A stretch of DNA of 64,000 nucleotides, taken from contig OX597818.1 in the NCBI GenBank assembly GCA_951406725.2, forward strand, positions 71,238,001-71,302,000, in the 5' to 3' direction. The notes beneath the pieces are model-generated. The model saw only the letters and a program-made list of their open reading frames with translations, did not search any database and was not told the origin of the DNA. Within the stretch, counting starts at the first letter, position 1. Every line of letters begins with the position of its first letter. This stretch comes from Octopus vulgaris. Lineage: Eukaryota. A program made the translations under genes and the position numbers. This document shows, piece by piece, positions 7,319 through 59,586 of the stretch.

Positions 7319-7717
7319 TTACTCTGATTTTATTGTTTTGTGAGTCACAGAATATTCATGATCATAATTTTGTTTCTCTGGACAATTGAGATCGATATTG
7401 CAATGACCTTCTTCCATTGAGCTATTGTGTCCTACAAATAAGTCCCTTAAGAAACTCAGTTCTTTATTAAGGGTCTGTATTTTTTGTTGCAGATCTTGGT
7501 TTTCTTTGCGCAATCGTGTCACTCTGTCAATAGTTTCTTTTGCCTTCAAACGATTTTTGCTGCGACATTTGCGTACTGCAATATTGTTACGTAAGCGTCG
7601 TTTCTTGTACATATCACCAGATTTTTCATCCTGTATTGAACTTGTAATACTGGCATCTCCATTGCCATTCTTCAAATCCTCCATTGAATTATCCATCACA
7701 GTTTGTTTCTTAGGCAT
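7319..7717 (-). CDS. CEBPG: CCAAT/enhancer-binding protein gamma-like bZIP factor, 132 aa, single coding exon
   Basis: YKKRRLRNNIAVRKCRSKNRLKAKETIDRVTRLRKENQDLQQKIQTLNKELSFLRDLF matches the C/EBP-gamma basic region and zipper; short with no activation domain; splice acceptor TTATTTTTCAG just upstream (exon starts 7749). Confidence 0.92.
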   Translation of the reverse strand: MPKKQTVMDNSMEDLKNGNGDASITSSIQDEKSGDMYKKRRLRNNIAVRKCRSKNRLKAKETIDRVTRLRKENQDLQQKIQTLNKELSFLRDLFVGHNSSMEEGHCNIDLNCPEKQNYDHEYSVTHKTIKSE

Positions 7718-7929
7718 TTTTGGTGAAAAAGATTTGATACACTATTGCTCTGAAAAATAAGAAAAACTTTATCAAAAGTTTGGAATTCGAAGACTCAACT
7801 AATTGAATTAAATAAAATATGCTCAAAGCACTTTGTACCCCAGAGAGTAGGCAAATAGAAATACATCTTAATATTTTTGCACACACAAAAATAATATTAC
7901 CCTGTACACTAACTACTATATAACAATTG

Positions 7930-8065
7930 CACTGTAGAAGGTGTTTATAAGCCATTTAAGAAAAACACAAAATCCATTAGATTCACTTCAACATTTAAGT
8001 TTAGTTTGTCAAAATATTTTCGTTGCTTTGAGACCGTGACCTGTTCGCTGACAAAATTCCAGGCT
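7930..8065 (-). mobile_element. Repeat family copy containing G3-C8 hammerhead variant (8005-8055)
   Basis: Homologous to both arms of 58096-58355; reverse strand TTTGTCA-GCGAACA-G-GTCAC..GCAAC-GAAAATATTT-TGACAAA. Confidence 0.65.
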
Positions 8066-8099
8066 GCATCTGAGAAAGTAACAGTTCATGATATATATG

Positions 8100-8139
<40 letters not shown>

Positions 8140-8849
8140 TGTGTGTACATGTGTGTATGTATATATGTATTTGTGTGCGTATGTATGTGGACATGTATGT
8201 GCGTATGCATTTGTGTACATGCATATGCATGTGTGCATGCCTATACTCATGTATGTATGTGACTATTTAGGAGAGAGTGTAGACGTGGCTGTGTGTGTGT
8301 ACATGTGTATGTACATGTGAATGTACGTTTATGTACTGATGTGTGTCTGTTCAAGTTGTATACATGACTGTTACTTTGTGATGGTTGTATACACACACAT
8401 ATACATGTATATAGACATGCATATACACACACGTGTGTGTGTGTGTTTGTCTCTCTCACCACTGTCTAACGGTGAATGGATACAATGTCTTAGACACATA
8501 TATGCACATATAACCTTACATATATATAAGTACACACAATCATAGACACTAACACACACTCACAAATATACGTGTATTCTTATAGTATACACATATATAT
8601 GCTTATCCATGTCTACATATGTATATGACAGTATTTACAATATAAAATTTGTCTCACGTTTTTCTACTACATGCTGTTGGTATGTATAAAATATTCAGTA
8701 AGTATTTAATCAAGCCACTGACTGATACACAATATGTCCAACCAATTAGCCAATTTCAGCTTTGCTCCTGGTTTCTGTCTGATTTCAACAACAAGTACTA
8801 TCAGGTCTTTAAGAATGAAATATCTGATTTTGAACTGAAAGTTTATTTT

Positions 8850-17250: not shown

Positions 17251-18989
17251 CTAGGATATATTTTCTGAAATATATTATCTTCTTCTACACAATTTAACCT
17301 AGTCTAGAATATATTATCCTTTCTATCTTCTGTTCAAAGAGGGTGTGGGTTGAGAAATTTCATTGCTATTTCTAGTAAATCAGCCAGCCTTGTAAAGGTT
17401 CCTCCGTTGATTCGTTCTAAATTTTATTTCCGTTATTGATTTTTGTTCATAATTTCTCTTATGATACATCTTAACATTTTAGAGACAAAGGATGTTTTTT
17501 TTAAATTTATTTTACTCTATATTATTTAAGTTTAAAAGTATTAGTTACAAAAAATTATTTTTTAAATGTGTCGGTCAAAGTGAAAAGATCCCATTTCTTT
17601 TTCAATTTAGTCTATTTTCGACAATTAGAGTGAAAATTAAGGATTAAATTCAAGGATTGCCTTCTAGATTCCCCACGCATTTAATGAAAATCGGAATAAA
17701 TCATATTAAAAAAATCTGCTCCTACACGGTTTTAGTTTTCGTATTTCGCTTGACAGAGTCTTTATTTCGCATTTTGTAAACAACCATCTGTCTGATAATA
17801 ACTACACTTTAGGGCCCATCTTTTTTTTTTCTTTACATCTTTAAATAACCCCCATTTTCGTAACGAAACCTAGCAGATATATACGTTTTCAGAGGTGTAA
17901 GTGACGATTATACTATTGAAGTGAAAACTGTTTTCCCATTTTTTTAAAAATTAGAAACCATTCAACGACTTGCAGGTGACCATTGCACAACATTAAGAAA
18001 TCTTCATCAGGATTTATTTATCAACAAAAACTCAGAAAGTACAAAAAAAAAAAAAAAACTCCACTTTACGTTTAGCATACGACATTTGGAATGTAATTTG
18101 ATAATTTTCAACTTGTCTAGTCATAAGTTAAAATATAAACTGGGAACATTTGAGGGATCCTCTGACGATGTTATAGTGATCATAACGAAATTAACGACTA
18201 GTTTAAAATATACCTTTCTCACCATTTATTGACCGAAGATCTTTTCTTTCTGAAGAAAAAAAAAACATTAAAAAAAGTTTCATCTTCATCTACACACTTT
18301 CGGAAACGTATCTGTAAAATTTCATTTAAACTGCAATATTAAGAAAATTACGAAGAAATAAAGTTGTGGTGGATGAACAGAATTTATTTCGTCTTTGACC
18401 TACATGGCCGTTTGATGTGTTAAAAATAGCTGCAACACCTCCCTCAGATCACACTCTACGTCTTAAATCGAGAAAGTTGCACATTAGATATTGTAGTTAT
18501 GGATACTCATTACCTTTAATCATAAATCTACCTGAATAGAGAGGCGCAGGAGGCTAACAAGAATATGTAAAGAATTTTCAAAATTATTTAATTAAAAAAT
18601 ATGTTGTAAATTAGAGCTACATTCATACTGAACACACAAGTGAAGAAAGGCATTCACTGTACTATTTGTGTCGACGAAAATGTTTTTGTAAACTGATGTC
18701 TTTCCTCCTTTGGACACACAAAGACCTGTTGAGGCAAGCGAAGTCGAAATCGAACCTCATCCGACGACAGGCACCCATGCCAACCCCACTTCATTGGACA
18801 CTAAACTCTGCTTGCGAAGACCTGTTGGGGCAAGTGAAATCGAAATTGAACCAATCCTATGACTGGCACCTGGTGGCAAGTGAAGAAACACCATTTCGAC
18901 CCTGTGCTTGAGGAGATCCATTGAGTCAAGTACACCAACATCAAAATCAATGGAAACTGCAGTTGTGATCCCTGAGCCGGTGGCATGTA

Positions 18990-19565
18990 AACAGCACTAT
19001 CTGAAGGTGGCCGATGCCAGCGTCGCCTCGACTGGCTTCCGTGCCGGTGGTACGTAAAAAGCACTATCCGAATCGTGGCCGATGCCAGCGACGCCTAGAC
19101 TGGCTTCCGTGCCGGTGGTATGTAAAAAGCACCATCCGAATCGTGGCCGATGCCAGCGACGCCTAGCCTGGCTACCGTGCCGGTGGTACGTAAAAAGCAC
19201 TATCCGAATCGTGGCCGATGCCAGCGTCGCCTAGACTGGCTTCCGTGCCGGTGGTACGTAAAAAGCACTATCCGAATTGTGGCCGATGCGAGCGACGCCT
19301 AGCCTGGCTTCCGTGCCGGTGGTACGTAAAAAGCACTATCCGAATCGTGGCCGATGCCAGCATCACCTAGACTGGCTTCTGTGCCGGTGGTATGTAAAAA
19401 GCACTATCTGAATCGTGGCCGATGCCAGTGCCGCCTAGACTGGCTTCCGTGCCGGTGGTACGTAAAAAGCACTATCCGAATCGTGGCCGTTATTAGTGCC
19501 GCCTAGACTGGCTTCTGTGCCGACGGCACGTAAAATGCACCAATCCGATCGTGGCCGTTGCCAGA
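18990..19565. repeat. Minisatellite, ~8.5 copies of a 68-bp unit derived from the RTE 3' UTR repeat
   Basis: gcactatccgaatcgtggccgatgccagc... recurs at 19061, 19129, 19197, 19265 and onward. Confidence 0.9.
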
Positions 19566-19609
19566 CTCGATTTGTCTAGTCATAAGTTAAAATATAAACT
19601 GGGAACATT

Positions 19610-19810
19610 TGAACCTCAATTTCCAGATTACAAGTTCAGGTTTACACCTATAATTTTGGGGGCAGTGGGATATGTAACACACTGCCTAAATACCAATCTT
19701 GAGAAATTAAGCTTCTCAAAAATAGAAAGGAGAAAGCTAAGACAGATCCAATCCATCACTGGAACTGTAAACATCTGTAAAACTTTCCAGAAGTTTATCA
19801 TTTAAATATA
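19610..19810 (+). mobile_element. R4/Dong/NeSL-type LINE 3' fragment (restriction-like endonuclease C-terminus)
   Basis: PIILGAVG...LEKL...IQSITGTVNICKTF resembles the PIVIGALG...IQ..LGT..I end of these elements. Confidence 0.6.
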
Positions 19811-45016: not shown

Positions 45017-45224
45017 AAATGGAAAGATGAATTATCTTGTTACGGATTATTCAAAAGTTTAACCGATACCTGGGTAGCAAAAATCACAGCAGAAAAAACA
45101 CGGTTGGAGATATGACCATATGGTGTAGCAACCGTGCATTGGCGCGGATAATTAATGTTTAATATAATTAGTGAATGGAAGAAATGGAGTTGAACGAAGA
45201 TTGTACAGAATTCTTTTTATTACA

Positions 45225-45304
45225 TTCTACACATGTTTCAAAGGCCACAATTTTCCAAATTCTGATTAAATAAGGATACCATATTGCAGCTTTCTCTTCA
45301 GGAA
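45225..45304 (-). ncRNA. Hammerhead motif, left arm of fold-back
   Basis: Mirror of 46565-46644. Confidence 0.6.
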
Positions 45305-46564
45305 AAACCAGGAATTACGTTGTCAGAACAAAACAAAACAAAAGCGCAGCAAAGCAATTCGAACGAGAACGCTCCTTAAGAGCCCATGGGTAAAATGTTT
45401 ATCAATGTACGTTGAAATCGGGGGGTTGGTGGGGGCCGACAAAAAGGTCCGTTGGAATAAATCAAGGTCAGGCCGCAGTCAAATCTAGTAGGTGAGGAAT
45501 TAATGAGAACAAGGGGTGTGGAGATGTTCTGTGTGACCAAAGCTAATGTTCTGAATATTTTAAGAATTCAGGGTGTATTTTTTGGGTGCGAGGCAATACC
45601 TACCTAAAAGCATGTGTGTGTATACTAGCCAATGTGTGCGCTGCCGTATGTTGGCGAGGGGCGCTAGATAATGAGCACTGCTGAAATAATTCTGTGTTCG
45701 TGTGTCCGTCTGTGGCCTGCTTGTCTAAAAATTATCCTCGTCAAAGAATCAGGGGGGTATATAATTCCGGCGCCTGCTTCTAAAAAACCGACCAATCGCC
45801 TAATGGGAGTAATTTCCCCTTGCAAGAGTTATTCAGAGATTTTTTAAAAAGTTTTTTCCAAAAATTATTTTCATTTTAATAGGGTATCAAGGTGTTAATT
45901 GTCTTAGGTATCATTTATATGTAAGAAACGTATGACGCCGCCAATGGGGACATCGAAAAGCAGACTGTAAAAGCCCGTTTACCAAACGGCCTCTGGCGAA
46001 CAATATGTGGAAAAGCTCAGAGTTACAAAGATTACATATCCTTCTGCCTCTATCAAACGGGAGGGCCACCGACAAAATTGACCATTCCAGCCTAAAAACT
46101 GAATTCGCGAATTCAGTTTTTAGGCTGGAATGGTCAATTTTGTCGGTGGCCCTCCCGTTTGATAGAGGCAGAAGGATATGTAATCTTTGTAACTCTGAGC
46201 TTTTCCACATATTGTTCGCCAGAATTATTTCAGCCGCCTGACAGGCTTTTTTCAGCAGTGCTCATTATCTAGCGCCCCTCGCCAACATACGGCGGCGCAC
46301 ACATAGGTTAGTATACACACACATGCTTTTAGGTAGGTATTGATTCGCACCCAAAAAATACACCCTAAATTCTTAAAATATTCAGAACATTAGCTTTGGT
46401 CACACAGAACATCTCCACACCCCTTGTTCTCATTAATTCCTCACCTACTAGATTTGACTGCGGCCTGACCTTGATTTATTCCAACGGACCTTTTTGTCGG
46501 CCTCGTTCGAATTGCTTTGCTGCGCTTTTGTTTTGTTTTGTTCTGACAACGTAATTCCTGGTTT

Positions 46565-46644
46565 TTCCTGAAGAGAAAGCTGCAATATGGTATCCTTATT
46601 TAATCAGAATTTGGAAAATTGTGGCCTTTGAAACATGTGTAGAA
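46565..46644 (+). ncRNA. Hammerhead motif with extended stem II, right arm of fold-back
   Basis: TTC-CTGAAGA-GAAAGCTGCAAT...ATTGTGGCCTTT-GAAAC-ATGT-GTA-GAA. Confidence 0.6.
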
Positions 46645-46698
46645 TGTAATAAAAGGAATTCTGTACAATCTTCGTTCAACTCCATTTCTTCCATTCAC

Positions 46699-46740
<42 letters not shown>

Positions 46741-48459: not shown

Positions 48460-51030
48460 AACCCTCAAAGACCTTGCAAATATATATCACCACATATCTT
48501 TCTCATCTTCTCTCCAGGGAATAGAGACTAAACTCCCAGTAGCCTATCTTTTGCATTTAGTCAATCTTCCTTGTGTATTGGTGCTGGATTACTTCGAGTT
48601 CCACAGTTTGTTTCACATTCTCTGGGGACCACAGTTAGGAGCAGTAGTCCAAGTGGCTGAGAATGAATGTCTTCTATAGGGGTAGCAGGGCTTCCCTTTT
48701 CCTAGTTCTGAATGTCCTCAGAATCCAGCCAGCCACTCGCCTGCACAGTGTTGGCATCTTGGTAACATGCACATGGGATGTTGCATCATTGCTCATGTGA
48801 ACCCCCAGGTCACACACCGACTCTGACTCTGGAATCATATTACCTTCTAGATCAGTGTATTCCGATTTTAGCCTGGTGTTGGACCGATAGTGGAGTGCCT
48901 GAAATTTCATAGCATTGAACTGCATGTTATTTTATTGAGGTCTTTCTGCAGTTTTATGATGTCCTCTGCCTGCAATACTTTTGTGTTGTCAGCATAACCG
49001 GTCAGATTGGCTGACTGTACCACGGAGGGCATGTCTGAGAGGGCCACCACAAATAGTAGTGGGACTCCGCTGAGAATTGGTCAGAGTGAGCACCATTGGC
49101 TACAACTGTCTGACTCCTGCCCTTCGGAAAATCATACAAGCCACTCTCCCAGTTTCCCGTTAATACTAAGGTTTTGCAGCTTGTGACTTATCGTGCCATG
49201 ATCAACTTTGTCAAAAGCATTGGCAAAGTCGAGATATATCACGTCTACAGCTGACTGGTTTAGTTGTTGCTTCAGTACCCAGTCAAAGTGCTGCTGCAAC
49301 TGTGTGAGGCAGCACCTCCCTGGATGGAAGCCATGCTGCATTTTTTGTGAGAAGGTTGTTTTCTTCTAGGAATGTGATCAGCCCTTTTCTGACAATGCGT
49401 TCCATTGTGTTGCTAACATGTGAGGTCAAAGAGATGCGCCTGTAGTTTCTAGCATCTGCTCTGCTCCCTCTTTTGGGGACAGGGCATATTATACCTTCTT
49501 TTAGCATGTTGGGAAGTTTGCCACATGCAAGGAAACTCTGAAAGAGTATCTGCTGTGGCTTTGCAATATCCTGTTAATATGTCTTTAAGAGAACAGCTGG
49601 GAATCCATCTGGGCCTGTCGCTGAGTTTGATCTCATCTAATCAATGGCCGATATTACATCCTCTTCTGTTATGTTGATGCAATTGATGGTTGCCTCTTTT
49701 CCGAATAGATTCATTAGATTGAAAAACTCCTTCGGCTTGTTTATTTGCATATTTTCCAGTAGAGAAGTGAAAATACTTCAGAATTGTTTATTTAGTGCTT
49801 CATTTATCTTCCCCGGGTCTGCAGTTAGTGAGTTGTTTTTACCAAATAGTGGCCCTATCTTATAGCGTACTGAGGCAGACTCCTTTGCTAATGTTTAGAA
49901 GGCTTTAGGGTTTCTTTTTATATTTTTGACTGCCTAGGTTTTTCTCTTTCTTTTGCATTGGAGATTTTGAGTTTATTCTCTATCTTGAAGAGTTTCTCCA
50001 TTAGGTGGGATTTCACACTGTCATTAAGATGTTTGTTTAAACGATTCAAAGTCTTTATTCTCTGCCACATGAGTGTTCTCCTGTCTCTGGGAATGATGTG
50101 TTTGTGTGTATTGGCACCCTTCTTTGGGACATAATGTATATTGACATTATTGACATGAATTTATTGCTTCATATCTATGTTTTGCATAGGGAGGCTTTTA
50201 GGCCAGTCCTGCAGGAGTATCTGTCTTTCAAGTGACGTCTAGTCAGCCTTATAGAAATTTAGGCTGGATAGGGTTTCAGCGTCATCTGTGCAGAGTTTAT
50301 CTTTAGTTAATTCCAGGCCATACATTGTCAGTCTATTATGTTATGGTCTGAGAAAATTGTCGGTAATATACTTACATTGTGGATAATTTCCGCATTGTTT
50401 GTAAAACAGAGGTCCAGGATGTTTGGGGAGAGTATGATCCACTCCATGAATATCATTTTCATAAGATCAAGTAGGGTTATTTTGCTCTCAGGCCACCTGA
50501 TGTTGAGGAAGCTGGAGTCACCTATCAGGAACATAGTAGTACATTGATCCAGTTCTGTTAGTACTTCCTTTATCGCACTGAGTCTTTCCTCAAATTTTCC
50601 ATGGGCATCAGGCGGGTGATATAGTGTGCATATCACTATATCAAATTGCTTTAGATGTACTGTGAGTGTCTCATCTCATATATATATTGCAACTCCATCA
50701 TGACTTCTTTTTCTTCTGCCTATACGGAAGATAATATACAATGGCATGTGTATCTCCACATCACCTATGTCTGCAGATAGATGTGGTTCTGTAAGTGCAA
50801 TGCTTGTAGCTTGATTACATGCAGAAAGATTATTCAGGTGCTCAATTTTGCATTTGCTGTTGTTCTGCAGCAGGCTTCTTATATTCATTAGTAGAAATTG
50901 CGCTGATGTTGATGTGTTGGGTGGTTTGGTGGTTAACCGGGGTCCATCAATTGTGGCAGTCTTGTATGCAAGGGTACATAGCTCAGCTTTGTCTGTTGCC
51001 ATGACAACCATTGCACTATTTCCTGTGCCA
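48460..51030 (-). mobile_element. Degenerate CR1/L2-like LINE
   Basis: MNIRSL, LTEPHL, ILDLCFTN, SDHNII, NYRRISLTS, QHGF, YLDFANAFDKVDH, MQFNAMKF. Confidence 0.88.
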
Positions 51031-51599
51031 CACTTAAAAAATGTTGGTCAGCTGCTGCACCTGCAAATGACTTCTGGGTGGCCTCTTTTTTTTTGCAGGT
51101 TTGTGACTAGATATAGATTTTTCTAAGTGTGGTTGTTTCCTTTGTTGGGTGACTGGTGGATTTTGCTCAAGTGCTGGGTGCATGCGCAAAGTGGCAGTTT
51201 CTCCCACTCTCTCTATGCCAGCAGACACACACAAACATATATATATATGTATGTATATTATGTATATATATACACACACACATATACATACATATGTGTA
51301 TGTATATGTGTATATGGATATATATTAAATGTCATCATCGTTTAATGTCTGTTTTCCATGCTAGCAGAGGCCAGAGGAGGCTGGTGAACAGCCATGATCA
51401 GTTGGTGCTTTTTACGTGTCACTGATACGGACGCCAGTCAGGCAGCACTGGCATCGGCCACGTTCTAGGAAGGGCATCCAGCTGTAGAAACACTGCCAGA
51501 TCAGACTGGAGCCTGGTGCAACCTCCTGGCTTCCCAGACACCAGTCAAACTGTCCAACCCATGCTAGCATGGAAAACAGACGTTAAACGATGATGATGA

Positions 51600-52549: not shown

Positions 52550-53487
52550 CCCAGCCGAGCTGCAGCAATTTTTGTCTGGTTCCCAAAGAAACATGCAGTT
52601 TTGCATTATCATATTAGGAAACAACACCCTTCCTGTTGGTCAATTCTGGACGTTTCTCTGCAATTGCTGCTTTTAACTCGTCCAGTTGTATGTAGTATTT
52701 CTCAGAATTGTCAGGTTACTTGTGAGAAGCTTATAGTACATAATTCCTTTCCAATGCCACCAGACACAAAGCAAGAGTTTTTAGAGCGAAGACCCGCTTT
52801 TGGGGTGGCTCATGTCGCTTACTCCAGGATCGCTTTCTCTGAACATTTTGGTAAATAATCCATTTCTCATCACCTGTCACAATTTGCTTTAAAAAAGGTG
52901 TGTTTTCATTCCGTTTATAAAGCAAATCACAAATGGAAATGCGATCCAAAAGGTTCTTCTCACTCAACTCATGTGGTAGCCAAACATTGTAGCGATTTGT
53001 GTACCCAAACTTTACCAGGTGCTCATGAATGACGGATTTTGATAGGCTGAGGCTTTCTGCCAATTCTCGCATTGTGCAATGTAGGTTATTCTCAATTAAT
53101 GACTTGATTTGGTCATCATCTGTAGTGGATGTTCTGCCTGATATCTCTTTATCAATAAGGCTACAATCTCCAGCTCGGAACCTTGCAAACCACTTCCGTA
53201 GAGTTCTTTCGGATAAAGAAACATCACAGTAAACTGTGCATATTTCTTTGGTTGCTTGTGAGGCATTTTTCTCTTTTCGGAAAAAGAAAAGCATCTTCTA
53301 TTTTAAAGGGTTACAAAATTGACACAGGTTATAGGAACATAAACCTTTGCACACGAAAAGATAGCTTAAACTGTGCTCTAAATGGACGTGTAGTCAAATC
53401 CTATTTTATGGTCTCAATCATGTTCTAAAATAAGTCGAAAGGTAAGCTACTATAATTCGGCAAGAACTTTCCAGACAACCCAATAAT
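52550..53487 (-). mobile_element. Degenerate mariner transposon
   Basis: ORF 52731-53294: ERTLRKWFARFRAGD, WLPHELSEK, IVTGDEKWI. Confidence 0.88.
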
Positions 53488-53696
53488 ATATCTGTTTGTT
53501 GTTTACACACCCATCTTTGTCTATCGTATTTTTTTTTTTTTGTAAATTCTCACTATATATATGTATACATATATCCCGTCAATGGGGGATCTTAGTACAC
53601 ACAGTATTAAAGCATGATATATATGTAACATATGGTATATGCTATACCACTTGGTATTATTGTAAACAATAATGTCCTTATATATATATAAGGCCT

Positions 53697-54361
53697 ATGA
53701 GGCCAAAACTGAATACATAAACAAGTGCCTGTCCAACAGTGATTGCATCATCCATACTCTCAACAGTGCGCCTTTAAATATGGTCTCTGATTATAAATAT
53801 CTTGGGTCATACATATCATCATCTGGAAAAGACTTTCTAACTAGAAAGGGTATGGCCTGGTCAGCCTGTAATGACATGCATAAGATCTGGTCATCAAATC
53901 TAAGTAGAGACTTCAAACACTTGAAATCTTCAAAGCCACAGTCGAACCAATTCTACTATATGGCTCAGAAACCTGGACATTATCAAAGTAGCTTGAGAGG
54001 CGGTTGGATGGAACCTACACTCGCCTCCTTATGAGAGCTCAAAATCTCTCGTGGAAGCGCCATCCAACCAAAATGCAAATATATGGGAAACTACCACCTG
54101 TGTCATCTCTTGTGAAAGGTAGGAGAGTCCAGTTTGCTGGACATTGTTGTAGAGCTGAAAAAGAAGTAATTTCTACTCTTCTCCTCTGGAAGCCATCTAC
54201 TCGCAATACCAGAGGGCGCACACTCTCCTACCCTGATGTAATCTCCAGGGATACAGGCATCCAGCAACAGGACCTCCGTAATGCTATGATGGACCGTGAA
54301 GTCTGGCGTAACATAGTAAATTCCATTGTCTCGACCACGGTCGAACAATGATGATGATGAT
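53697..54361 (+). mobile_element. Second copy of the RTE/RTE-X-like LINE, (TGA)n tail
   Basis: Near-identical to 42449-43100. Confidence 0.9.
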
Positions 54362-57546: not shown

Positions 57547-57929
57547 CTAGCAGTATCGCTCGGGTTTGTAAGGGAAATAATTATATAAGCATTTTTAGAG
57601 ATGTAAAGTATAATAGCCATCTCAATATGGCTAACCACAAAGGGGGAGGGGTGTTACTGTAGCTTTTTACGTTCAGAGATTTAATAATAAATTTTAGAGA
57701 GTTACTTCCCTTATATATGTCAAAAATGGATTAAAAATGGGAAAAATTGATGGTAAATTTTTTTAAATCGTAGACTCATCGTAGACGCGCGCTAATACCC
57801 AGACGGTCTCGATATGAATCACGACTATAAGATACCCGGTTTTGGTTAAACTGCACCGCAAAATGTGGGAGTAGTTAGGAATCTAAATCGTAGGAGACAG
57901 ACACACAACCTCACTTTTATATATAAAGA
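57547..57929 (-). mobile_element. Non-autonomous Helitron
   Basis: Reverse strand A|TCTTTATATATAAAAG...CTAG|T: TC start, CTAG end, AT insertion site. Confidence 0.75.
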
Positions 57930-58095
57930 TTTCCTCTATTTACATAATATTGAGGTCTCTTTCTTTCTTTTGTTATCTTACTGTTTTTACCAATATACAT
58001 ATATATATATATATATATAAATATATATATAGTTACAGAGATGTACTTGCATAGCAAGTGACTTGATCTGAGATCGTGTGCTGGAACGAAAACAG

Positions 58096-58355
58096 TTGCA
58101 GCGTTGAAGGTGTTTATAAGCCATTTAAGAAACACACAAAAACCGTTAGATTCACTTCAACATTTAAATTTAATTTGTGAAAATATTTTCGTCGCTTTGA
58201 GACCGCGACCTGTTAGCACGATATTTTTGTCAGTGAACAGGTCGCGGTCTGAAAGCGACGAAAATATTTTGGCAAATTAAATTTAAATGTTGAAGTTAAT
58301 GTAACGGTTTTTGTGTGTTTCTTAAATGGCTTTACAAACACCTTCCACGCTGCAA
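58096..58355. mobile_element. Palindromic repeat with ~120-bp arms carrying a G3-C8 hammerhead variant
   Basis: 58096-58214 is inverted relative to 58236-58355; flanked by (AT)n; homolog at 7930-8065. Confidence 0.8.
58226..58276 (+). ncRNA. Hammerhead-like motif with swapped core GUGAACA (G3-C8)
   Basis: TTTGTCA-GTGAACA-G-GTCGC-GGTCTGAAA-GCGAC-GAAAA-TA-TTT-TGGCAAA. Confidence 0.65.
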
Positions 58356-58714
58356 TATATATATACACACATATATATATGTATGTATGTATGTATGTGT
58401 GTATATGTGTATGCATGTATGTGTGTGTGTGTGCGTGTCTGTGCTTGTGATTGTCCTCCACCACTGCTTGACAACGAATGTTGGTTTGTTTACATCCCTG
58501 TCACCTAGTGGTTTGACAAAGGAAACAGATAGAATAAGTACAATGCTTACAAAAATAAAACTGGAGTTGATTCATTAAACTACAATTCTTCAAGGCATTG
58601 CCCCAGCATGGCCACAGACCAATGGCTGGAAAAAGCAGAAGAATAAAAGAATACATTCTCTGCTTTGGTCATATGTTGAAGGCATGAGAAAGCTTGAGTT
58701 TACATGAGAAGGCC

Positions 58715-59092
58715 TAACAGACCTGGTAGAAACAGCAGCCAAATCTCCCTCAAATCACACCTTACTGTCTTATGTATGTATATATATATGAGCCAATGAG
58801 GGGGACCTCTACATGGTAGCTAGACCTGGTAGAAATAGCAGCCAAATTTCCCCCAAATCACACCTTACTGTCTTATCTATGTATATATGTATGTATGAGC
58901 CTATGAGGGAGACCCCTACATGGCAGCTAGACCTGGTAGAAATAGCAGCCAAATTTCCCCCAAATCACACCTTACTGTCTTATCTATGTATATATGTATG
59001 TATGAGCCTATGAGGGAGACCCCTACATGGCAGCTAGACATGGTAGAAATAGCAGCCAAATCTCCCTCAAATCACACCTTACTGTCTTATCT
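58715..59092. repeat. Tandem repeat, ~3.5 copies of a 103-107-bp unit
   Basis: acctggtagaaa(t/c)agcagccaaat at 58721, 58824, 58931 and (one mismatch) 59038; ORFs repeat with period 107. Confidence 0.9.
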
Positions 59093-59119
59093 TTCTGCTA
59101 CTTGGATATAGGTGTTATA

Positions 59120-59586
59120 CTCGTCGTAAAAAAACTTTCCTGTCACACACTCACGCACACACACACACACGCACCCTCACACACGCGCACACCCACACAC
59201 ACCCACTCACACACACGCACGTTAGCTTACAATTTTATTTATATATTTGCGTGTCTGTGTGGAAAGAGGAAGTGGGAGGCAGAGTGAAAGAATCACTCAC
59301 TACAGTAAGTCAATTACTTTCATTTTATTTGTTGCCCACTGTGTGTGTGTGCGTTTGCGTGTGCTGTAAACCAGACTAAGAAAAGCATTTGACACACACA
59401 CCAGAATGTGAGTTTTCTGTAAATTTTGCTCAACTGGAGTTTAAATTTTAAAAACTGGACCTGGCATGACGCGATGCATTGTACTCTTAAAAATGCAAGG
59501 TAAATTGTAATTGAAGAAATCCTATATTGTAGATTTGTATAACTCCCAAAGAGAGGCAGATAAAATCTGCCTTTTATAATAAGAGA
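59120..59586 (-). mobile_element. Helitron-like fragment
   Basis: Reverse strand A|TCTCTTATTATAAAAGGCAG start with GGCAGA...TCTGCC hairpin. Confidence 0.45.

What the first reader, a model, noticed from the sequence alone, without database searches (positions are those of the whole stretch)
58226..58276. Natural hammerhead candidate with reversed 3-8 core pair (GUGAACA instead of CUGANGA)
Seen: 7-bp stem I, perfect 5-bp stem II (GTCGC/GCGAC), GAAA, palindromic AAUAUU stem III and a UUU triplet, all placed as in a type I HHR, but the core is G3-U-G-A-A-C8-A. Established: C3 and G8 form a tertiary Watson-Crick pair, and engineered C3G/G8C double mutants rescue activity. Standard CUGANGA searches would miss this. 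It belongs to a multicopy palindromic repeat (also at 7930-8065), so it may define an overlooked ribozyme-bearing family. I cannot confirm that it is undescribed.
Basis: partly seen in the sequence, partly recalled or inferred. Interest (0 to 1): 0.85.

Follow-up and report, generated by a model that had tools for sequence, protein, structure and literature searches.

The report
Octopus retroelement hammerhead with flipped pair
An octopus Penelope-type jumping gene carries, in over 1,500 copies, a hammerhead-shaped RNA motif whose key core base pair is reversed (G-C instead of the C-G of its closest relatives); the motif likely still cuts itself when two copies pair up, but cutting is untested, and this particular copy is likely an inert passenger.

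Summary
The motif lies in the pseudo-LTR of a Penelope-like retrotransposon (RT, CxxC linker, GIY-YIG), 56 nt upstream of the start codon. A near-complete copy has two GUGAACA motifs flanking the ORF. At least 1,559 copies exist.

Two sister families in the same genome keep C3-G8 at the same place. One differs in the core at exactly positions 3 and 8 and has a compensatory stem II change. In metagenomic relatives 37 of 38 hits pair at 3-8 (C-G or U-A, never G-C). So G3-C8 is a derived, compensated natural swap; I found it reported only as an engineered rescue.

The palindrome is the usual head-to-head truncated Penelope insertion, here carried inside a non-autonomous Helitron; its long hairpin likely sequesters this copy.

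Cleavage is untested. A young sister family tolerates A9C, which argues for weak catalytic constraint. Verdict: new core variant of a known kind; interest 0.5.

The parts
58226..58276 (+). Type I hammerhead motif with G3-C8 core (G3 58233, C8 58238, extra G 58240, stem II 58241-58245/58255-58259, palindromic helix III 58263-58268, U17 58269; predicted cut 58269/58270)
   Evidence: sequence; fold; descriptor scan with shuffles; covariation
58215..58356 (+). Direct arm: 5'-truncated end of the Penelope pLTR (hammerhead plus first codons of the ORF, ATG at 58326, frameshifted in this copy), ending at the shorter of two 3' termini and followed by (TA)n
   Evidence: 88% identical to both pLTRs of the near-complete element L287; 3' end clusters
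58033..58214 (-). Inverted arm: second 5'-truncated pLTR end, cut inside the hammerhead core (lacks G3-U4-G5 and the 5' strand of stem I), with the roughly 58-nt optional tail; pairs with the direct arm into a long hairpin
   Evidence: hairpin of 58096-58356 at -179.9 kcal/mol
57547..59586 (-). Carrier: about 2-kb non-autonomous Helitron-like element (5'-TC, 3'-CTAG with a subterminal hairpin partly deleted in this copy, inserted at A|T) that amplified the Penelope palindrome as cargo
   Evidence: shared ends in loci L001-L030; 40 scored copies at 98-100% identity incl. a tandem array on C2; Helitron end rules recalled
7922..8485 (-). Second, independent and decayed pLTR fragment of the same family (hammerhead 8005-8055, G3 at 8048, with U4C and stem II mismatches), 5' of a bZIP coding exon on the same strand

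Best explanation
The motif is the hammerhead of a Penelope-like retrotransposon family in which the tertiary C3-G8 pair has flipped to G3-C8; it likely self-cleaves weakly, as a dimer and perhaps with help from the element's protein, to process tandem element transcripts, while this window's copy is likely inert. Shown: the motif lies in both pseudo-LTRs of an RT / CxxC-linker / GIY-YIG element, just 3' of a branch-point and 3'-splice-site-like sequence and 56 nt 5' of the start codon. Shown: sister families have C3-G8 at the same place, so the flip is derived and keeps Watson-Crick pairing. Inferred: two pLTRs in a tandem transcript pair through the AAUAUU palindrome to build helix III and cut after U17, with the 2'-OH of residue 8 (a C here) still positioned by the 3-8 pair. 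Inferred: the window copy is a head-to-head truncated insertion in a (TA)n tract of a Helitron; read-through RNA would fold into a long hairpin that buries the motif.
For: Host element: walking upstream from solo copies reaches a GIY-YIG/RT ORF; 17 of 30 endonuclease-hit loci have the motif downstream on the same strand within the 1.5-kb flank; L287 has two motifs 4,261 bp apart flanking the ORF, with pLTRs 1096/1097 identical; the ORF N-terminus matches relatives (E 1e-11 to 1e-17). Penelope hallmarks: two 3' ends about 58 nt apart (50 and 37 of 94 copies), (TA)3 after 60 of 91 ends versus 8.6% background, inverted upstream copy in 11 of 30. Covariation: family C has CUGAAGA, differing from GUGAACA only at 3 and 8, with the same stem I 5' strand and an A-U for G-C swap in stem II. 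Sister family B (54-57% aa; joined at SH-aLRT 99 in a quick tree) has C3-G8. In 76 metagenomic relative loci, 37 of 38 hits pair at 3-8 (16 C-G, 21 U-A), versus 5.3 hits and 1.2 paired in shuffles. Frequent non-CpG variants: 6 in the 9-nt loop 2, 0 in 42 nt of core and stems, 5 in 99 nt of flank (94 copies). Engineered C3G/G8C rescues activity (PMC9901934 passages; PMC11167929 parts 1-2 read).
Against: No cleavage data of any kind. Sister family B, young and nearly invariant, carries A9C in 45 of 49 parsed copies, and L183 has it too; others show U15.1-A16.1 or G5A (by eye). So the clade tolerates core changes that are expected to hurt catalysis (recalled). Nearest-neighbour energies do not favour the double hammerhead (-24.2 versus -26.4 for two monomers and -33.9 for a non-hammerhead dimer; tertiary contacts not modelled). 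PLE hammerheads cleave poorly in vitro (PMC4209133) and were dispensable for insertion in vitro (PMC11167929). The metagenomic hits are a few related families, not 37 independent events, and the loop 2 changes may be few events. The alignment behind one search has only 7 rows.
Confidence: 0.72

Rival explanations
1. The motif descends from the Penelope hammerhead and keeps its fold, but it no longer cuts usefully. It is kept as a structural signal (protein binding, splicing or translation leader), and the G3-C8 flip was kept for the fold alone or arose by drift.
For: A9C is fixed in the active sister family B; atypical cores occur in relatives; the hammerhead was dispensable in vitro and no RNA ends were seen at the cut site in the anole element (PMC11167929); Naiad PLEs thrive without canonical hammerheads (PMC8557442 passages).
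Against: The 3-8 pair is a tertiary contact of the catalytic core. Two transversions falling exactly on it, with the other conserved core positions unchanged, is unlikely under relaxed selection (rough post hoc estimate about 1%: 3 of 78 position pairs times 1 in 3 pair-keeping outcomes; inference).
Confidence: 0.22
2. The hammerhead look is coincidental: a palindromic MITE-like repeat or promoter segment whose stems are mutational by-products.
For: The window locus is a near-perfect 260-bp palindrome; the local fold z-score is only -2.0; no Rfam hit.
Against: The palindrome is an inverted truncated pLTR of an ORF-bearing element. Homologous canonical CUGAnGA hammerheads sit at the same place in sister families. 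All Cervera consensus features (extra nucleotide after A9, G10.1-C11.1, palindromic helix III, NUH) are met.
Confidence: 0.04

Closest known systems
Minimal / short-palindromic-helix-III type I hammerheads of metazoan Penelope-like elements (Cervera & De la Pena 2014, PMC4209133; parts 1-2 of 4 and supplement parts 1-2 of 3 read)
   Same: In the pLTR; extra nucleotide between 9 and 10.1; G10.1-C11.1; palindromic 15.2-16.2 region needing a dimer; U17 is common there too; mostly solo truncated copies.
   Different: G3-C8 core. None of the representatives in their Fig. S3 has G3 (C3 throughout, apart from three U3 rows); no cephalopod is listed.
Natural U3-A8 hammerhead variant (Perreault 2011, PMC3088659, section 8 read; Schistosoma Cercyon PLEs in PMC4209133)
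   Same: Compensated Watson-Crick swap of the same tertiary pair; also seen in 21 metagenomic relative hits here.
   Different: U3-A8 keeps pyrimidine-purine order and needs two transitions; G3-C8 inverts the order by two transversions and puts a pyrimidine at position 8.
Engineered C3G/G8C double mutants (anole PAc hammerhead, PMC11167929; deep mutational scan, PMC9901934; Kalweit & Hammann, PMC3884650 passage)
   Same: The same base swap; partial rescue of cleavage, including in a PLE hammerhead that needs the PLE protein.
   Different: Those are laboratory mutants; here the swap is the wild type of a multi-thousand-copy family.
Neptune/Nematis-type EN+ Penelope-like elements (Craig 2021, PMC8557442 passages; Arkhipova 2013, PMC3846280 passages)
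   Same: Single ORF RT - CX2-5CxxC linker - C-terminal GIY-YIG; partial tandem pLTRs; inverted 5'-truncated copy; optional tail; (TA)n targets.
   Different: Tail about 58 nt rather than 30-40; pLTR about 1.1 kb and rich in microsatellites; clade placement rests on motifs, as no labelled references were in the tree.

Membership tests
Type I hammerhead ribozyme | Three-way junction with stems I and II around NUGANNA and GAAA | tested here: met
   7-bp stem I, 5-bp stem II; stem II covaries with sister families
Type I hammerhead ribozyme | Literal C3 and G8 (CUGANGA) | tested here: not met
   G3 in 99 and C8 in 96 of the first 100 listed of 1,559 matches; it is a variant, not the canonical consensus
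Type I hammerhead ribozyme | Watson-Crick pair between positions 3 and 8 | tested here: met
   G-C here, C-G in families B and C, C-G or U-A in 37 of 38 relative hits
Type I hammerhead ribozyme | U4 G5 A6 A9, G12 A13 A14, A15.1-U16.1, G10.1-C11.1, NUH cleavage triplet | tested here: met
   all present; each at least 95% conserved in 94 copies except the CpG-forming C11.1 (93%); U17 in 35 of 37 paired relative hits
Type I hammerhead ribozyme | Self-cleavage after N17 | not testable with these tools
   only contigs of guessed-RNA runs were available; they cannot show RNA ends
PLE dimeric hammerhead | Extra nucleotide after A9 and palindromic short helix III | tested here: met
   G 58240; AATATT 58263-58268
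PLE dimeric hammerhead | Double-hammerhead dimer is the favoured fold | tested here: inconclusive
   can be drawn but is 2 kcal/mol above two monomers and 4-10 above the cofold minimum in 3 of 3 copies; no tertiary terms
EN+ Penelope-like element | Single ORF with RT and C-terminal GIY-YIG endonuclease | tested here: met
   839-aa open frame in L169 with YVDD and GTVY...YIG motifs (motif names recalled); Pfam RVT_1 in 4 and GIY-YIG in 3 of 36 homologues at E<=0.01, none for P0001 itself
EN+ Penelope-like element | Partial-tandem pLTRs that include the ORF start, hammerhead within | tested here: met
   L287
EN+ Penelope-like element | 5' truncation, inverted 5' copy, optional tail, microsatellite targets | tested here: met
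EN+ Penelope-like element | Spliceosomal intron in the pLTR | tested here: inconclusive
   branch-point and 3'-splice-site-like sequence ends about 20 nt 5' of G3; no spliced joint among the contigs laid
Neptune/Nematis clade | CX2-5CxxC linker before the endonuclease; phylogenetic placement | tested here: inconclusive
   linker motif present in P0001; no labelled reference sequences in the tree
Non-LTR retrozyme | ORF-less head-to-tail repeats of a few hundred nt, each with a hammerhead | tested here: not met
   the window copy is an inverted pair; one locus elsewhere (L135) does have 8 such units
Non-autonomous Helitron (carrier) | 5'-TC, 3'-CTAG with subterminal hairpin, A|T insertion, tandem arrays | tested here: met
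   ends read in L001-L030, array on C2; the rules are recalled

The most novel reading that the evidence does not exclude
This is the first natural, catalytically active G3-C8 hammerhead, the wild type of a large octopus Penelope family. The double transversion was kept because cleavage matters to these elements in vivo. Its head-to-tail arrays of about 175 nt act as G3-C8 retrozymes, and a hidden layer of such ribozymes is missed by CUGANGA-based searches.
Probability: 0.4. Interest if true: 0.68.

Novelty: new variant of a known kind. Interest (0 to 1): 0.5.

Why it matters
A natural G3-C8 hammerhead would add the inverted pair to the swaps known from nature (C-G, U-A), and would mean that CUGANGA descriptors miss whole families. 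It also bears on an open question: whether Penelope hammerheads are selected to cut or merely ride along. Three sister families in one genome (G3-C8; C3-G8; C3-G8 with A9C) are a ready-made natural comparison for a cleavage assay. The surprise is moderate, because U3-A8 is known in nature and the engineered G3-C8 swap is known to work.

Tried and rejected
Rfam scan of the window: no hammerhead match. MITE reading: rejected once the arms proved to be truncated pLTR ends of an ORF-bearing element. A C3-G8 subfamily inside family A: rejected. Of 31 genome-wide C3 matches, 7 have G8, but 6 of these belong to the separate family C; within family A 1 of 24 has G8, like the C8G background of 3 in 94. 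One search used a mis-oriented query and returned an unrelated SINE-like repeat. Convergent pairs 2.8 kb apart were inverted Helitron pairs, not PLE bodies. Expression and cleavage: no RNA holder listed on record; four guessed-RNA contig sets cover the motif but show no splice joint and cannot show ends, so this is no evidence either way. PDB sequence search gave only weak bacterial RT hits. The careful tree did not finish; the quick tree is used only for the 10 well-covered rows, since the 16 distant rows cover under half of the columns. No hammerhead was parsed in L182, L186, L187, L197 or L207; L181, L183, L185 and L188 were parsed by eye only. Lunse, Weinberg & Breaker 2017 (about 150,000 PLE hammerhead variants, recalled) is not held and was not seen; it, its supplements, Repbase/Dfam entries and the octopus repeat library of PMC13282606 (supplements not opened) could already hold G3-C8 examples or this family.

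Full report
OBSERVATION. One addition: an extra G (58240) sits between A9 and stem II. RNAfold recovers stems I and II (z -2.0). A hammerhead descriptor with positions 3 and 8 free finds this one hit in the window and 0.15 per shuffle. Rfam reports no hammerhead. The copy near 7930-8065 is a single decayed arm on the minus strand, with U4C and stem II mismatches.

LOCAL CONTEXT. The motif is in the right arm (58215-58356) of a head-to-head pair; the left arm (58033-58214, minus) is cut inside the core. The pair sits in a TA tract inside a 2-kb repeat (57547-59586). On the minus strand this repeat begins TC, ends CTAG after a hairpin, and lies in A|T sites; these are Helitron rules (recalled). 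The 40 best genome matches to the window arm are 98-100% identical, and the 30 fetched are all copies of this composite, so they are not independent. On the plus strand the two arms fold into a hairpin of -179.9 kcal/mol, which would bury the motif in read-through RNA (inference).

THE FAMILY. The genome is an octopus: a protein with 100% matches in G000 is labelled Octopus vulgaris by its source. A 35-place pattern for one subfamily gives 1,559 exact matches, 0 in the reversed control; 83 of the first 100 listed keep the 8-nt core, and changes are spread at 1-5 per 100 over all eight positions (counted by hand). Independent copies have variable 5' ends and two fixed 3' ends about 58 nt apart (50 and 37 of 94 copies). 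They are followed by (TA)3 in 60 of 91 cases against 8.6% background, and 11 of 30 have an inverted copy directly upstream. Walking upstream reached an endonuclease-like C-terminus and then an 839-aa open frame with RT, a CxxC linker and GIY-YIG motifs. Pfam support is weak: RVT_1 in 4 and GIY-YIG in 3 of 36 homologues, none for P0001 at E<=0.01. Of 30 endonuclease-hit loci, 17 carry the motif downstream on the same strand. L287 holds two GUGAACA motifs 4,261 bp apart flanking an ORF broken by frameshifts, with pLTRs identical at 1096 of 1097 aligned sites. The ORF starts 56 nt after the predicted cut (L260, L261), and its N-terminus matches relatives. This is the architecture described for EN+ Penelope-like elements: partial tandems, inverted 5' copy, optional tail (PMC8557442 passages; PMC3846280 passages; PMC11167929 parts 1-2 of 4).

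COVARIATION. (i) Family C in the same genome has the same stem I 5' strand, core CUGAAGA, the extra G, and stem II GUCAC/GUGAC. Its core differs from ours only at 3 and 8, and stem II differs by an A-U for G-C swap (6 loci plus L062). (ii) Family B, 54-57% identical in protein and joined to ours at SH-aLRT 99 in a quick tree, has C3-G8 at the same place but A9C in 45 of 49 parsed copies. (iii) In 76 metagenomic loci encoding relatives, the relaxed descriptor gave 38 hits; 37 pair at 3-8 (16 C-G, 21 U-A, no G-C), all on the ORF strand, against 5.3 hits and 1.2 paired in shuffles. These are a few related families, most of them distant. (iv) On a 7-row alignment the 3-8 column pair is C-G in 4 and G-C in 2, with one row gapped. 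(v) Among 94 family A copies (Helitron-borne duplicates and core-selected loci dropped first), non-CpG variants at 10% or more fall 6 in the 9-nt loop 2, 0 in 42 nt of core and stems, 5 in 99 nt of flank. With C3-G8 in the sister and in outgroups L184 and L189, G3-C8 is derived. There is no C3-G8 subfamily within family A (1 of 24 C3 copies has G8).

MECHANISM. Shown: position, anatomy, derivation and compensation. Inferred: a tandem transcript brings two motifs together, the AAUAUU palindromes pair to form helix III, and each site cuts after U17 to trim or circularise element RNA. Residue 8 contributes its 2'-OH rather than its base (PMC6155905 passage), which explains why a swap can work. 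C20G/G25C was the only rescue in the CUGA turn in a full pairwise scan (PMC9901934 passage), and C3G/G8C partly rescued a PLE hammerhead that needs its protein (PMC11167929). Against: nothing here shows cleavage; the drawn double hammerhead is not the predicted minimum; B tolerates A9C and other relatives have odd cores; PLE hammerheads are slow (PMC4209133) and were dispensable in vitro. I put hammerhead descent at about 0.95 and useful cleavage by the family motif at about 0.7.

KNOWN VERSUS NEW. Natural U3-A8 is in print (PMC3088659 section 8; PMC4209133). I found no natural G3-C8: the full-text searches returned, in the papers I opened, only engineered mutants, and no row of the 56-representative Fig. 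S3 in Cervera's supplement has G3 (part 3 of 3 not read). PMC13282606 (passages) has no mention of ribozymes. Lunse 2017 was not available and is the likeliest place for a prior record. Unchecked notes from this scan mention G3-C8-like cores with an insertion beside Penelope elements in two other genomes (e1-7369241, e1-7353390). They are leads only, but suggest the swap may recur.

VERDICT. A real, compensated core variant of a known ribozyme in a known class of retroelement, with unusually clean sister-family controls, and untested for activity. New variant of a known kind; interest 0.5.

Noticed in passing
L135:1852-3205 (G000 C28, about 5.21 Mb): Eight head-to-tail units of about 170-177 nt, each with the GUGAACA core, separated by TA tracts: a retrozyme-like array and a natural dimer substrate. 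L055 has a similar array whose stem II is partly decayed.
   Followed up: partly
L324-L326, L294-L323: Sister Penelope family B: about 100% identical copies (150 scored matches at 99-100%), open frames up to 1,312 aa, tandem arrays with 4.6-kb units; its hammerhead has C3-G8 with A9C and an imperfect palindrome in helix III. It looks currently active.
   Followed up: partly
L329, L331, L339, L348, L349, L356, L062: Older family C with canonical CUGAAGA core and a wobble-palindromic helix III; its ORF start is 63-76% identical to family B over about 25 aa (3 copies tested).
   Followed up: partly
L181:4973, L183:2497, L185, L188:2358: Close metagenomic relatives with other atypical cores, parsed by eye: U15.1-A16.1 flip; U3-A8 plus A9C; U3-A8; G5A with G15.1-C16.1.
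   Followed up: partly
window 57547-59586 (-): A non-autonomous Helitron captured the Penelope palindrome and spread it (at least 40 near-identical copies, a tandem array of 2.18-kb units on C2, and inverted pairs in L098 and L099).
   Followed up: partly
window 7322-7741 (-): bZIP coding exon (Pfam bZIP_2, E 6e-14; C/EBP-like by recall); the decayed second pLTR copy lies about 180 nt upstream on the same strand.
   Followed up: no
L096, L097, L177: Three unrelated hammerhead-descriptor hits in octopus loci (one C3-G8, two U3-A8), probably other Penelope families.
   Followed up: no
window 52731-53297 (-), 53666-54351 (+), 50328-51047 (-): Fragments that look like a mariner transposase, a LINE RT C-terminus and a LINE endonuclease (names recalled, not scanned).
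   Followed up: no
window 45162-46707 and 18939-19618: A 1.5-kb near-perfect palindrome centred at 46107/46108, and a 68-bp tandem repeat.
   Followed up: no
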